Source: Convolutriloba macropyga (Eukaryota). From it: 38,132 nt of DNA. The notes below the pieces were generated by a model that saw nothing but the letters and a program-made list of their open reading frames with translations, ran no database searches and was not told the origin of the DNA. How positions within the stretch are numbered: the first letter of the stretch is position 1; every line of letters begins with the position of its first letter. The stretch spans positions 20,398,001 to 20,436,132 of the forward strand of contig NC_134474.1 in assembly GCF_964194025.1 (NCBI RefSeq). The letters are read 5' to 3'. This document shows positions 23,613 through 36,447 of the stretch, in pieces. The position numbers and the translations under genes were made by a program.

Positions 23613-23954
23613 TCGGTCTTTCGCTGTTTTTGTTTTTAATCAGCAAAAAAAATAAATTAAAGTGATTTCTCATTTTTACTTAGAGCTCTTGTTTGCGTTT
23701 TTGAAAAAAACAGCCCTTCCACTTCATTTCAGATTAGCTTGCACTACTACATTTTGTTTCTCATTGGAAGAAAACAAAAAGTGGAGGAGTGTCATCCAAC
23801 TTATATCCAAAAACATCTTGGTCTTCATTCCGACAACATTGTTAGTAAGTAAAAATTTTGATTAAAACACAGTTTGAGCCATGAGCGGTTTTTTTATTTT
23901 TTTTAAAAGAGGAAGTGCTTGCCAACTTTAGGCAGTAGTGATTGCAACGTTTTG

Positions 23955-24823
23955 ATGACAAAATTAGAAAACAGTTTCTTTACGATCGATTTATCATCCA
24001 ATGCGTCGCTTGATTGCTATCCCGACAATACACTTGCATCCTTCCTTACATCACTCAGCGCACCTCAAGAACTTGACGATAATCAGTGCACCGTTTCCCT
24101 CTCTAGCATAACTTGCCCAAAAAAGTTCTCCAATATCGTTGAAGGTAAATTTGACTATATCAATGGAAAACTTGGCATCTACTTATCAAATTGTCGTGTT
24201 CCTAAAGGTTTGTACAATAGCGTGTTCGAATTGATTGATGGCATGGAAAAAGGAATCTATGCATCTAGAAGACAAGAATCTATTTTCGATAAAAGTAAAA
24301 AAGATTTTCAGTTTTCCCGAGAAAAGAACTTACGTCCAAAGGTGTGGTTGTTCTATGCGAAGGAAAGGATTGTGTTCATCTGACAAATGTTTCAGATGAT
24401 CTCAGATACATATTAGGATTGGAGAAATTTCTGTTGGAGACGCATAATAAACTTTCCTCTGGAAACAACCAGTTTGGAGATAAGCCAATTTTTCCAACGG
24501 ATATCAATTTGTATCATCTTGCTTTTGTTTATTGTGACATTATTGAGCCACAGTGTGTTGGCAATACCAAGGCACCCTTATTAAGATCTTTCCCCCTATC
24601 TGACGCAACTCAAATTGGTCCTGAAAAGGTGGAGTCCTCCATCGCAGGCCGTTTCGGATATCCAGCTGTATATCGTCACTCTTTTGACAAAACTCAATCT
24701 AAGCTTGTCAATAAAAAATATATTCACGATATTTTGATTGAAATTCGAAGTGATACTGGGAAACTGATACCTTTCACGGGAGTTGGTCGTACCTACGCAA
24801 CACTTTTCTTTGAAAAAAAATAG
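23955..24823 (+). pseudogene. Polinton/adintovirus minor capsid protein (penton), one frameshift near 24330-24345
   Basis: The N-terminal FFTIDLSSNASLDCYPDNTLASFLTSLSAPQEL...VSLSSITCP and C-terminal FVYCDIIEPQCVGNTKAPLLRSF...IHDILIEIRSDTGKLIPF...ATLFF match the patterns typical of Maverick minor capsid proteins. ORFs 23919-24383 and 24344-24823 overlap in different frames. Confidence 0.8.
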
Positions 24824-24854
24824 TTCATAGTTTCATTGCTTCCAATAATTTAGA

Positions 24855-25528
24855 ATGGGGCAGTGGATCAGAAAACGAAAAGAACAAAGTGACCTCGAGC
24901 GACAAAATGCACAGCCTCTCACCGGAGTAACGCCTGAAGAAGATCTTGAGGTATCAAAACTGGATAACGTGTGGGACCTGGATCCAAAAAACAACCGAAT
25001 TGTCAGAGTCGGGCTCAGAAAATCTGAAACGAGCGTATACGCCTACATTAAGGTCTTCAAACTAACAACTACGGTTGATTCAAAAATCAATACAATATCT
25101 GATAAATGGACCAGACAATCGAGTTTATCGCTCACAATGGACGAATTGATCAACGTCACAAAAATTATTGGTCGTGAATCCAGTGAAACCTTGACCGAGA
25201 CAGATTTGCAGATTTGGCACTGCGGGAGTCTTTTGAGTTGGCAATGACTTCATCCCTTGAAGCGATAAGATGCAATAGCGCTCCTGTTGAAGAGAAGAAA
25301 ATGAAGACGGAAGTTGTGGAAGTTGAACACAAATTAAATGGCGAAACGATTGGCGACGAAGGTGAAGTTTACACCCAGTCTCAAATTGGGGACGACTTTC
25401 CCGAGGACTTTGCTATCCCTGTTACAGAGGATGTATCATTTAGAAATGAACAAGATGCAGATATTTGGCGATCCCCAATCAAATTCAAAGCTAGTCAAAA
25501 AGTGAAAAGAGCAATTCTTCCAATATGA
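24855..25528 (+). pseudogene. PC4/Sub1-like ssDNA-binding domain protein with an acidic C-terminus, frameshifted by an 8-bp duplication
   Basis: WDLDPKNNRIVRVGLRKSETSVYAYIKVFK...SSLSLTMDELINV resembles the PC4 beta-sheet plus SLT.(E/D).. helix. Removing one copy of cagatttg (25201-25216) fuses the two track ORFs into a 221-aa frame (ETDLALRESFELAM). Confidence 0.55.
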
Positions 25529-25770
25529 AAAAATTTTAAATCGTCTGAATGATATCACACAGCTTTGGTTCAACTGATTGATTGGCTACCAGATTATTAT
25601 TCTCCTCTCCTCGATCAACCTATATACAATACTTTTGTATTCTCTTGCTACTATTTTTTAAATAAAAAATTTTTTTGCAGCTTTTACTCGTTATCTCATT
25701 CCAGCCATTGTTGGGCCTTTTTTCAAACCTTGAACAAACTTATAGTGCTGTGTTTTTCAGAAAAGTATCA

Positions 25771-34123: not shown

Positions 34124-34520
34124 TTGATGGATTGATCATATCTTGCAAAAGAAGAGGAGCACTTGATGATCATTTTTAAAGCAGAGACTTATGGCTGTCT
34201 GTCTGTCTCTCTATGTTTGTATATCATATCTCGAAGTTTTGTATTGTATTTCAGCAAACATTTGTGATGAATTAGTCTTTATTGATGACAGTACTTGTTG
34301 CTTTTTACTGTACAAAAGATTGAAATGAATGAAAGGAGAACTGCCAATTTGAGGCATTTTTTTGTAACTTTTAGATTTTTGATAGTTGTAGGTAGAACTA
34401 ATTGTTTAATTACTAACTACCGCACTTATATGTTTTTCTTTTAGTTTTCATTTGTTGTTTCATTTGTGTACCTATTATTAATTGTGATGCAGGGGGGCAC
34501 TGATTCTTCAGAGTTTTGGT

Positions 34521-35213
34521 ATGGAGTTTCGTCAAGGTGCCACCAGGATTTATGCGCATTTTGCGTTCTGCCCCACCAATGATTGTGAGAAAGGAGCAAT
34601 AGAGCAATGTGATCACATTTTGGAGGAGCTCTGTGTAATGCTACAGCGTGAGCACATTGAGTTTGTGATTGGTGCCTATGTCTTTAACTGCCTAAAACAA
34701 TGCGGTTTTCCAAATGCAGTGTTTGTGACACGAAAAACTTCACAGAATCAACATCGTGTTCCAAATTCAGCTCAAAGGCGCAATCTTATGTCGTCCACTA
34801 ATAAGGAAGCACCGGAACTTTGCGAGAACCATCTTCATTTGTTGATATACTGTAGAGATGACTCCCAATAATCTACAAGTAATGCCCAACCAGCGACCAC
34901 AACAAACTGGAGACTTGAAGAAGCCGTAGCACGCGTAAGGCACTATTTCAGTTTTCAACTACCGAGGTCAGAGATGAGATCAGGCTTCAAGTTCTTTCAA
35001 ATACAAGTGTGGTGTCCCTTCTCTGTGTATGCTGCTTTCGCTGGACAAATAAAAAATAAACAGTCTTATGCTCTTGCGCGCGGGGAACAATTCGACTTGT
35101 TCAGTTCTACATATGACGCAAATGCTGACTTGAACAAATATTTTCCAAAGAGAGCACCAATTCTCCGTTCCAAGTGCCTGTTTGAACTGCAGATAAAATT
35201 CTTGGTAAAATAG
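34521..35213 (+). pseudogene. HUH-endonuclease-like protein, ~230 aa, one premature stop at 34869
   Basis: Track ORFs 34521-34871 and 34974-35213 are in frame and the sequence between them is open. HLHLLIY lies at 34830-34850, with a downstream helix PFSVYAAFAGQIK. The ORF itself is well supported; the family assignment is inferred. Confidence 0.5.
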
Positions 35214-35408
35214 TGTTGTGCATATGGACCGCAATTTAGATTATGACATCTTTGGTTTTTCTTAATACAGTTTAATACATAAATGTAAGATTGAAGGCAG
35301 GCAAGTAGTATGTATCCTTGACTCAACTTTCACGCTCTCTACGCAACATTATCATGGTTGGTAGCCTTTCTCATAATACAAGGTTTGGTCATTTCAGAGA
35401 GAGATTCA

Positions 35409-36447
35409 ATGGCTCTCCTACCAATTTCTAATCAATATTTTGCTCGCATTTGGTCAAAAGATTCGGTCCTCAATGCATCTTTGCATCAGAACCCGCTTTT
35501 GCAGCAGCATATCGAACCCAATATTGAGGTGTTTGAGCGTATCAACAATTTGAGCTGCGAAACACAAATTACAGTGAGCAGCAGGCACCTGTTTCTGACA
35601 ATACGGTTAAACGCTTCTCGTGTAGGAATCTTCAAGAGCATTGCTACTTTCTCCGTAACAGAAATGAATCGTATTTGGGGTTTGAAGCCAGCCATTGACA
35701 TTCTGCTTTTTTACTACAATTCAGTCTACAATTACCGACAAGCGGCAACATCATATTTGCCTCAAAACCAGCTCCAGAATGCTTATAATCGGTTCGCTCA
35801 ACAACAACAACAACAGCAAAGCAACAGCCAAATGAATTCATCTCAGTTCTTTTGTCCACACTATGATAGTGCGTCGGACGCAACTTTGGATTTCAATCTG
35901 CATTGTTTCAACCAAAACAACAACAACGCACATTTACACATTTACTTGAAGATAATCAGTCGCACGTTGCAGTAGGTCAAGTCTTTCCACACAGCAGATA
36001 CCGTTTGCGGCTGCCGCTCGAATTGACTCTCATTCTCTTCCAGTGGAAAATCAGCAACCATCACCAGTGACATATATTGCTGCACCCTCTGCTACGTTGT
36101 TGCAGCAGCGAAACCGTTTTCAACAAAATCAATTTGGTAGAGCTGCCAATAACAATCTAAACGTTCGACATTATTCCTCGGCTGATCTTTCAAATCTTTC
36201 CAATTACACAATTGGAGAAGAAAGTGAAGAAAACAACAATTCCTTAGCGGGAGTAGCCTGTGTGTCTCAACACGTGGGAGATGGATCAAGCAATGATACC
36301 AAACAACAAGTTGCCGGGAGGGAAGACAGAAATCTTACTTCGTCGTCGGCAGAAGCTGTTGTAATAGCTGGTGTTCCTGATGGTTACTATGATGACGCTG
36401 AAGAAGAAGATGATGAAGACAATATCAATACTACTGACGTTATTTAG
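35409..36447 (+). pseudogene. Protein with a possible second PC4-like N-terminal domain and a Q/N-rich then acidic disordered tail; probably one frameshifted gene
   Basis: ATG at 35409 follows atttcag. QITVSSRHLFLTIRL...SIATFSVTEMNRIWGLKPAIDILL resembles the PC4 strand-helix end. An 8-bp duplication acatttac (35930-35945) plus one further indel near 35985 would join it to ORF 36043-36447. Confidence 0.45.

What the first reader, a model, noticed from the sequence alone, without database searches (positions are those of the whole stretch)
23845..35411. Nearly every gene start is preceded by an unpaired 3' splice acceptor: leader-spliced or SL trans-spliced viral operon
Seen: (T-rich)YAG acceptors lie just upstream of the ATGs, at 23931>23955, 24853>24855, 25760>25771, 26919>26928, 27636>27641 (with branch-point-like ttctaac), 28350>28360, 33097>33110, 34511>34521 and 35397>35409. 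All genes are co-oriented. AATAAA lies ~95-130 nt before the next acceptor in two spacers (25661, 27504). A consensus donor gtaagt sits at 23845, upstream of the first gene, closing a candidate non-coding exon 23733-23844. Known: the adenovirus major late unit splices a common leader onto alternative acceptors, and nematode and tunicate operons are resolved by spliced-leader trans-splicing. Inference: the whole element is expressed as one unit and resolved either by alternative cis-splicing from the 23845 donor or by the host's SL machinery. I do not know of this being described for Mavericks.
Basis: partly seen in the sequence, partly recalled or inferred. Interest (0 to 1): 0.8.

Follow-up and report, generated by a model that had tools for sequence, protein, structure and literature searches.

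The report
Maverick virus borrows host spliced leader
A virus-like Maverick element in an acoel worm genome has all its genes on one strand and keeps splice-acceptor signals just before many start codons, and it likely lets the host's own spliced-leader RNA cut its long transcripts into single-gene messages, a route not yet shown by RNA here.

Summary
Observation largely confirmed; mechanism inferred, no RNA run available. The stretch is the left part of a 27.2-kb Maverick/Polinton (106-bp TIRs, 6-bp TSD, pPolB, ATPase, integrase, double-jelly-roll capsid) in an acoel. All nine acceptors lie where claimed and are kept in sister copies. A second family in the same genome (capsid 56% identical, spacers unalignable) is also one-stranded and repeats the pattern: TTTCAG 4-11 nt before starts, plus an ATG-free exon and GTAAGT donor ~100 nt before the first gene. 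Four bidirectional families lack it (10/37 vs 2/61 starts, p=0.0009). 'Nearly every gene' is too strong: the core block (ATPase, integrase, capsid, protease) has no acceptor at its starts (10 of 19 pass). The host has a working spliced-leader system: an SL RNA array of 1256 exact hits and retroposed SL-capped copies showing SL landing on TTTCAG. Best reading: SL trans-splicing at these acceptors (0.57); rival: adenovirus-like shared leader from donor 23845 (0.27), which may run alongside. My paper searches found no such report for Mavericks; this scan's unchecked notes saw SL on tunicate Polintons.

The parts
21552..38132 (+). Left 16.6 kb of a 27,236-bp Maverick/Polinton (family A); it continues 10.7 kb past the window (L021, L022) through TM gene, ATPase, integrase, pVII-like gene, MCP, protease to the right TIR; termini AGAAGAA..TTCTTCT, 6-bp target-site duplication CTCAAG
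   Evidence: about 21 near-full matches of 23600-28800 at 87-100% in the genome (33 of 53 candidates scored)
21552..21657 (.). Left terminal inverted repeat (~106 bp, 95% to the right arm)
23727..23732 (+). TTTCAG acceptor opening the non-coding exon; likely first SL landing site
   Evidence: kept in 16 of 17 other copies; same motif at the matching place in family B
23733..23844 (+). 112-nt ATG-free candidate leader exon (72 nt in family B)
   Evidence: ATG in 2 of 17 copies; exon status inferred
23845..23850 (+). GTAAGT donor; the only retained intergenic GTAAGT ahead of the acceptor-bearing genes of the window; counterpart 96 nt before the first gene in family B
   Evidence: GTAAGT in 15 of 20 aligned copies, 2 of which lack the region
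23926..23931 (+). CTTTAG acceptor 23 nt before first gene; likely partner of the 23845 donor (87-nt intron that would remove an upstream ATG present in 17 of 18 copies)
23955..24823 (+). First gene, minor-capsid (penton)-like by recalled motif; frame broken in this copy
   Evidence: 37-45% to family B ORF; no Pfam hit
24848..24853 (+). ATTTAG acceptor 1 nt before the PC4-like gene (24855-25528, label recalled, frame broken here); orthologue in B has GTTTAG at 7 nt
   Evidence: AG in 19 of 19 copies
25755..25760 (+). TTTCAG acceptor 10 nt before gene g3 (ATG 25771)
   Evidence: hexamer in 18 of 19 copies
26014..26171 (+). Likely ordinary cis-intron of g3 (GAG|GTAATA ... TTTAG|GAT, phase 0)
   Evidence: length 157-161 nt across 20 copies while exon 1 is 243 nt in 15 of 20; in-frame stop inside in 20 of 20
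26914..26919 (+). TTTCAG acceptor 8 nt before g4 (ATG 26928; the upstream ATG 26850 is in frame in only 3 of 20 copies)
27631..27636 (+). TTTCAG acceptor 4 nt before g5 (ATG 27641), branch-point-like TTCTAAC at 27612
   Evidence: 18 of 19 copies
28345..28350 (+). TTTCAG acceptor 9 nt before the pPolB start
   Evidence: 18 of 19 copies; only a weak TTCTAG at 17 nt in family B
28360..32986 (+). Protein-primed DNA polymerase B gene, broken into several frames in this copy
   Evidence: Pfam PF03175 36.1 bits in one piece; pieces 34-61% to the open 1509-aa family-B polymerase
33092..33097 (+). Weak GAACAG acceptor 12 nt before g7 (ATG 33110)
   Evidence: AG in 7 of 9 copies; passes none of three motif tiers
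34506..34511 (+). CTTCAG acceptor 9 nt before g8 (ATG 34521); orthologue in B has TTTCAG at 9 nt
   Evidence: 9 of 9 copies
35392..35397 (+). TTTCAG acceptor 11 nt before g9 (ATG 35409); orthologue in B has TTTCAG at 10 nt
   Evidence: 9 of 9 copies
37066..37071 (+). Further TTTCAG acceptor, 190 nt before g10 (ATG 37262); the syntenic B gene has the motif at 8 nt
   Evidence: 7 of 7 copies

Best explanation
This one-stranded Maverick lineage keeps TTTCAG-type acceptors 4-11 nt before many of its start codons, and these likely serve as landing sites for the acoel host's 31-nt spliced leader, which would be trans-spliced onto long one-way viral transcripts to give each accessory gene and the polymerase its own capped 5' end. 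Shown: element anatomy, enrichment and conservation of the acceptors in two distant families, their near absence in four bidirectional families, an SL RNA gene array in the genome, and SL joined directly behind TTTCAG-type sites in retroposed host copies. Inferred: that viral RNA is made as polycistronic or nested transcripts; that SL is added at these sites; that the 23845 donor mainly serves a short 5'UTR intron of the first gene; and that the tightly packed core block (ATPase, integrase, MCP, protease) is expressed another way (own starts, reinitiation at overlapping stop/start codons, or acceptors inside upstream frames).
For: [quoted passage not shown] That SL occurs 2929 times in G000 (<=3 mismatches, reversed control 0); 1256 exact hits carry a GTAA donor, the first 100 listed lie almost all in a tandem array on C9, fold as SL-type stem-loops and sit beside 5S rRNA. 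Of 72 dispersed copies read, 70 have no GT after the SL; in at least 4 repeat families one copy reads SL-x-TTTCAG-y and a sister reads SL-y; 39 of 72 have an ATG within 15 nt of the SL. Acceptor enrichment: A+B 10 of 37 mechanical starts vs 2 of 61 in families C-F (p=0.0009); family B 7 of 17 curated starts vs 1.35 expected (P=7e-5); 13 of 43 coding-strand TTTCAG in A+B open a >=90-aa frame within 12 nt vs 0 of 26 on their other strand and 3 of 75 in C-F. A and B DNA aligns essentially only inside coding regions, yet orthologous starts keep acceptors. Seven T-rich B spacers (40-45% T) of 105-272 nt hold no donor scoring >=7/9 against U1, a spacing like flatworm operons (peak ~100 bp; PMC8629364, passages), which also states that an acceptor with no upstream cis donor suffices for SL addition.
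Against: No viral RNA junction was seen by any route. A consensus donor lies upstream in cis in both families; in family B its only near pyrimidine-rich acceptor would give a 39-nt intron, shorter than the shortest of 19 roughly called host introns (65 nt), so that donor may reach further downstream. Host donors look degenerate and weak GT sites occur in most spacers. Six core genes have no start acceptor in A, and their counterparts none in B. The pPolB and first-gene acceptors are weak or missing in B, the last-gene acceptor is weak in A. AATAAA is absent from 8 of 8 B spacers up to g10, unlike operons with a 3' end before each acceptor. Some starts were curated with the motif in view (g4, B g8), though the mechanical tests agree.
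Confidence: 0.57

Rival explanations
1. Adenovirus-like shared leader: one promoter in the left end makes a long transcript; the 23733-23844 exon (itself possibly SL-capped at 23732) is cis-spliced from donor 23845 onto alternative downstream acceptors, giving nested families that share a few poly(A) sites. It can coexist with direct SL addition.
For: ATG-free exon flanked by TTTCAG and GTAAGT ~100 nt before the first gene in both families although their spacers do not align; it is the only retained intergenic GTAAGT ahead of these genes; in B it has no good near partner (39-nt intron) and no ATG lies between it and the first gene; intergenic AATAAA recurs at three matching places in A and B, before the TM gene, after the protease and before the last gene; adenovirids descend from polintons (PMC11161782, passage).
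Against: In A the donor has a conserved near partner (23931, 17 of 18 copies) and an upstream ATG that needs removing (17 of 18); it would have to skip up to ten strong acceptors over 13-24 kb with no known viral splicing regulator; the donor's exonic part is weak (6/9 in A, 7/9 in B) and lost in 2 of 18 aligned A copies; the host has a ready SL route that takes unpaired acceptors; the scan's unchecked tunicate notes report SL rather than a shared leader.
Confidence: 0.27
2. Each gene has its own promoter in the spacer and a short private 5'UTR intron that uses a weak local donor.
For: Host donors are degenerate; weak GT sites lie 45-480 nt before most acceptors; the element has at least one ordinary intron (26014-26171); family B encodes a TBP-like protein.
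Against: Several spacers are too short for promoter, exon and intron (9 and 30 nt before the PC4-like acceptor; 82-100 nt in three B spacers, two with no GT candidate); no shared donor motif; does not explain why only the one-stranded families show the pattern.
Confidence: 0.12
3. Chance T-rich matches or a translation-context motif unrelated to splicing.
For: Spacers are 36-54% T; 33097 and 23931 are weak; copies used for retention counts are related.
Against: Shuffle tests keep composition and still give P=0.007 to 7e-5; strand and family controls; lowest divergence at -5..0; motif recurs at orthologous starts with unalignable spacers.
Confidence: 0.03

Closest known systems
Maverick/Polinton endogenous viruses (class Polintoviricetes; PMC11161782, passages read)
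   Same: pPolB, retrovirid-like integrase, packaging ATPase, cysteine protease, double-jelly-roll MCP, TIRs, 6-bp TSD, multi-copy
   Different: 21-27 kb, every gene on one strand, AGAAGAA termini instead of the AGTAGT of families C, E and F in the same genome, 8-10 extra genes with start acceptors, conserved non-coding exon; my searches found no report of SL or leader splicing for the group
SL-resolved operons of flatworms, chaetognaths, nematodes and tunicates (PMC8629364, PMC12460157, passages read)
   Same: Co-oriented genes, T-rich spacers of ~100-300 nt, acceptor close to the start codon, SL RNA genes beside 5S rRNA
   Different: Here the genes are viral; canonical poly(A) signals are mostly missing between genes; one consensus donor lies upstream in cis; polycistronic RNA not shown
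SL trans-splicing in the acoel Symsagittifera roscoffensis (PMC9911081, passages and supplement legend read)
   Same: Identical SL core found in this genome with AG|GTAAGT donor
   Different: The passages read name no operons, Mavericks or SL-capped retroposons
Cer1 LTR retrotransposon of C. elegans, SL1 trans-spliced 2.4-kb mRNA (PMC3315495, passages read)
   Same: A virus-like mobile element whose RNA takes the host SL at its own acceptor, beside cis-splicing
   Different: One SL site on a retroelement RNA, not a DNA virus with many genes each given an acceptor
Adenovirus major late unit with tripartite leader (recalled, not from a call)
   Same: Related virus class; one non-coding exon with donor ahead of a row of acceptor-led genes; few shared poly(A) sites
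   Different: In adenovirus the leader serves the structural genes; here acceptors lead accessory genes and pPolB while most core structural genes lack them; one candidate leader exon, not three

Membership tests
Maverick/Polinton | [quoted passage not shown] | tested here: met
   PF03175 above cut-off in one piece; pieces match a 1509-aa open frame of family B; broken in this copy
Maverick/Polinton | Retrovirid-like integrase | tested here: met
   rve 43.7 bits in family B; family A pieces 37-57% identical to it; broken in this copy
Maverick/Polinton | Packaging ATPase and cysteine protease | tested here: met
   Pox_A32 34.9 bits for L021:2542-3372; Peptidase_C5 27 bits in B, A pieces 40-44% to it
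Maverick/Polinton | [quoted passage not shown] | tested here: met
   AlphaFold model pLDDT 71.7 matches PBCV-1, Sputnik and mavirus capsids, E~1e-13 to 1e-12
Maverick/Polinton | Minor capsid (penton) protein | not tested
   Label for the first gene is recalled from its N-terminal motif; no Pfam hit, not folded
Maverick/Polinton | Terminal inverted repeats and 6-bp target-site duplication, 5'-AG...CT-3' ends (feature list recalled) | tested here: met
   family B likewise
SL-resolved operon | Host SL RNA genes with exon, donor, stem-loops | tested here: met
SL-resolved operon | Co-oriented genes with short spacers and an acceptor near each downstream start | tested here: met
   Met for the accessory/pPolB block; not for the core block
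SL-resolved operon | Acceptors have no cis donor partner | tested here: inconclusive
   No strong donor in the B spacers, but weak GT sites, degenerate host donors and one upstream GTAAGT
SL-resolved operon | 3'-end signal before each downstream acceptor | tested here: not met
SL-resolved operon | SL found on the mRNAs; polycistronic precursor | not testable with these tools
   Needs RNA of this species
Adenovirus-type shared leader unit | Non-coding exon with donor upstream of many acceptor-led genes | tested here: met
   One such exon in A and B
Adenovirus-type shared leader unit | Leader serves the late structural genes | tested here: not met
   MCP, protease, ATPase lack start acceptors in A and B
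Adenovirus-type shared leader unit | Leader joined to several acceptors in mRNA | not testable with these tools
   Needs RNA of this species

The most novel reading that the evidence does not exclude
A lineage of DNA viruses has rebuilt its genome into a single-strand operon that is resolved by the host's spliced-leader snRNP, the first DNA virus group to depend on trans-splicing, with an SL-capped viral leader exon adding adenovirus-like alternative splicing on top; the same adaptation would have arisen separately in tunicate Polintons, and would tie such viruses to SL-using hosts.
Probability: 0.45. Interest if true: 0.82.

Novelty: new variant of a known kind. Interest (0 to 1): 0.66.

Why it matters
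How Mavericks express 15-20 genes from a compact genome is largely undescribed. If they use the host's spliced leader, a virus gains capped single-gene mRNAs without its own promoters, its host range becomes linked to trans-splicing, and the layout (one strand, acceptor at each start) becomes a sequence-only marker for such viruses. The genome holds its own control, one-stranded families with acceptors beside bidirectional families without, and a young family (17 places at 97-100% identity), so one long-read RNA library would settle it and would also show whether adenovirus-style leader splicing has a forerunner in polintons.

Tried and rejected
RNA: no RNA holder listed for 23600-28800 (4 runs, one study, kind unknown). 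Laying those four runs on 23480-37200 gave even cover over genes, spacers and the g3 intron, as DNA would; none of the 15 joints shown (8 more not shown) matches a proposed junction. No evidence either way. Retroposed viral mRNAs as fossil junctions: no match beginning at an acceptor among 34 of 34, 32 of 32, 17 of 17 and 18 of 18 scored candidates; 0 of 72 dispersed SL copies match families A-F (72 of the first 100 listed, of 2929); uninformative, since such copies are dominated by repeat families. Rfam SL1 finds nothing, nor in its controls. No SL-complementary stretch before the viral acceptors (longest 4-6 nt, as background). Copies at ~70% identity are decayed; the leader exon aligns in one but its donor is lost, so they were not counted. 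The PC4-like protein of B found only 97-99% copies. The GTAAGT at 23515 is private to this copy (1 of 20) and was rejected as a second leader donor. g3 exon 2 and g5 show no similarity to the syntenic B genes. Host intron calls are rough: 19 junctions, 8 with a score margin under 10. Literature: searches listed no paper on SL or leader splicing in Mavericks; the eri-6/7 preprint (passages) is repeat-mediated trans-splicing of a host gene, PMC12721341 and PMC11957031 (passages) do not treat it. Subscription papers and bioRxiv supplements were not visible and may bear on novelty.
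Full report
What the stretch is. The finding lies in the left part of an endogenous Maverick/Polinton. 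With the next 30 kb of the contig the element runs from window 21552 to 10.7 kb past the window end, 27,236 bp, with ~106-bp terminal inverted repeats and a 6-bp target-site duplication. It carries a broken pPolB (PF03175), an A32-type ATPase, integrase and protease pieces that match Pfam-confirmed frames of a sister family and a capsid gene whose model matches double-jelly-roll capsids. The labels 'penton', 'PC4-like' and 'pVII-like' are recalled, not from a call. About 21 near-full matches at 87-100% were found for 23600-28800 (33 of 53 candidates scored). The mitochondrial COX1 of the assembly reads in code 5 and is 92% identical to Symsagittifera roscoffensis, so the host is an acoel.

Checking the observation. 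Five acceptors are TTTCAG, three TT(C/T)AG, one (33097) weak. Against dinucleotide shuffles of the 60 nt before each of 19 curated starts, TTTCAG/TTTTAG occurs 5 times (1.3 expected, P=0.007) and TTYAG 9 times (2.7, P=0.0003). In sister copies the nine AGs are kept in 135 of 140 cases against 1065 of 1241 for other spacer AGs (related copies, so indicative only), and shared variants fall in 1 of 48 columns at -5..0 against 40 of 280 further upstream. 'Nearly every gene' holds for the window but not for the element: 10 of 19 starts pass any motif tier, and the TM gene, ATPase, g13, integrase, MCP and protease have none. The AATAAA pattern is not general.

A natural experiment in the same genome. 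The capsid protein finds five more families. Two copies of each were read. Family B (capsid 56%, sister to A in the tree with support 93/94; 21 kb; same AGAAGAA ends; 17 places at 97-100%) has 16 of 16 mechanical ORFs on one strand, as A has 21 of 21; families C-F are bidirectional. TTTCAG/TTTTAG lies within 30 nt of 10 of 37 mechanical starts in A+B and 2 of 61 in C-F (p=0.0009; looser tiers p=0.013 and 0.028). In B alone 7 of 17 curated starts carry it, 1.35 expected. Read the other way, 13 of 43 coding-strand TTTCAG in A+B open a frame of 90 aa or more within 12 nt, against 0 of 26 on their opposite strands and 3 of 75 in C-F. A and B DNA aligns in eight coding stretches and one 26-nt chance-level match, yet the orthologous PC4-like, g8 and g9 starts, the syntenic g10 and the pVII-like gene keep acceptor-like sites; pPolB and the first gene are weak or lacking in B, the last gene weak in A. 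Both families also have TTTCAG, an ATG-free exon (112 and 72 nt) and GTAAGT about 100 nt before the first gene; it is the only retained intergenic GTAAGT ahead of these genes, kept in 15 of 20 aligned A copies.

The host can trans-splice. PMC9911081 (passages; supplement legend) reports 30.2% SL trans-spliced genes in S. roscoffensis and prints the leader. Its core occurs 2929 times in G000 with up to 3 mismatches, reversed control 0. 1256 exact hits are followed by GTAA; 98 of the first 100 listed lie in a tandem array on C9; eight read show a 31-nt exon, AG|GTAAGT and stem-loops, with 5S rRNA beside them in 2 of 3 loci scanned. Of 72 dispersed copies read, 70 have no GT after the leader; they fall into 16 multi-copy groups and 19 singletons, and in at least four families one copy reads SL-x-TTTCAG-y while a sister reads SL-y; 39 of 72 have an ATG within 15 nt. 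These are best read as retroposed trans-spliced RNAs, and they show the leader landing on the same TTTCAG class, at a similar distance from ATG, as in the Maverick.

Mechanism. Shown: layout, motif enrichment and conservation, host SL machinery. Inferred: long one-way transcripts receive the SL at each acceptor, giving capped mRNAs whose first ATG is 1-12 nt away (0.57). PMC8629364 (passages) states that an acceptor without an upstream cis donor suffices and gives an operon spacing peak near 100 bp; seven B spacers measure 105-272 nt, 40-45% T, with no donor scoring 7 of 9 or more against U1. Against this: host donors look degenerate (2 of 19 roughly called myosin introns are GTAAGT), weak GT sites lie in most spacers, and the conserved donor needs a partner. 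In A it has one (23931; an 87-nt intron would remove an ATG present in 17 of 18 copies); in B the near candidate gives 39 nt, below the 65-nt minimum of that small host sample, so a shared leader spliced to downstream acceptors remains open (0.27) and may coexist with SL addition. Intergenic AATAAA recurs in both families before the TM gene, after the protease and before the last gene, which fits nested mRNAs with few 3' ends under either route. Private promoters with private introns (0.12) fit poorly in spacers of 9-100 nt. The core block is likely expressed otherwise; its MCP stop overlaps the protease start in both families.

What could not be tested. No RNA of this species was available and no fossil viral junction was found (see Tried and rejected).

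Comparison and novelty. It is a member of the Maverick/Polinton group by every feature tested (PMC11161782, passages, for the gene set). It is laid out like an SL-resolved operon but membership is unproven: the mRNA test could not be run and a poly(A) signal before each acceptor was not found. It shares one feature with the adenovirus late unit (recalled) but fails another, since the structural genes are not the ones led by acceptors. The nearest printed precedent I read is SL1 on the Cer1 retrotransposon mRNA (PMC3315495, passages). Seven searches (listings, plus passages of three of the papers) gave no report of SL or leader splicing in Mavericks; subscription journals were not searchable. 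Two unchecked notes of this scan describe SL on tunicate Polinton genes; they agree with my reading and were not tested here. Verdict: real feature, new variant of a known kind, interest 0.66.

Noticed in passing
L043-L054, L130-L189 (dispersed on C1-C3): The genome holds well over a thousand dispersed SL copies heading repeat families (one read has LINE-like frames with an endonuclease hit just under the Pfam cut-off). Many carry SL, then a stretch complementary to the SL 3' end, then a fresh TTTCAG, so the repeat appears to rebuild its own trans-splice site and mimic the SL RNA stem.
   Followed up: partly
L085:5393-6022 (G000:C6, family B Maverick): Family B encodes a 209-aa TATA-binding-protein-like protein (PF00352 34.2 bits, above cut-off; weak hits to 7 solved TBPs) behind two tandem TTTTCAG sites; no counterpart in family A at blastp 1e-3.
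   Followed up: partly
L077-L082 (G000:C9, from 23.14 Mb): Tandem SL RNA gene array, units ~1.1-2.2 kb apart, interspersed with 5S rRNA genes.
   Followed up: partly
L083-L122: At least six Maverick families coexist in this genome: A and B (one-stranded, AGAAGAA ends, 27 and 21 kb) and C-F (bidirectional, 16-17 kb, AGTAGT ends seen in C, E, F); many MCP frames are open.
   Followed up: yes
L021:7634-7641 and L086:1106-1113: MCP stop and protease start overlap by 8 nt in both A and B, and similar stop/start overlaps occur in C-F, suggesting translational reinitiation in the core block.
   Followed up: no
window 22285-22780 and 23169-23489: Arrays of a palindromic TTTACAAATTGTAAA unit (20- and 32-nt periods) just upstream of the candidate leader exon; possible promoter or origin elements.
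   Followed up: no
window 21650-21738: Inside the left end: acceptor-like TTTTAG, an 8-nt stretch with ATG, GTAAGC, a 34-nt T-rich stretch ending TTTTAG, and a further TTTTCAG; could be a micro-exon or part of an upstream leader.
   Followed up: no
window 33932 and 34254: A donor inside g7 (GTAAGT in 8 of 9 other copies) and a TTTCAG 322 nt later (AG in 9 of 9) may be a second internal intron.
   Followed up: partly
window 16949-17075: A host exon-like stretch (TTTGCAG ... GTAAGA, 123 nt open) upstream on the same strand; the element may sit in a host intron.
   Followed up: no
L021:1-1680: A ~1.7-kb TCTA microsatellite expansion inside the element between g10 and the TM gene; family B has AT/ACAT runs in its left end.
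   Followed up: no
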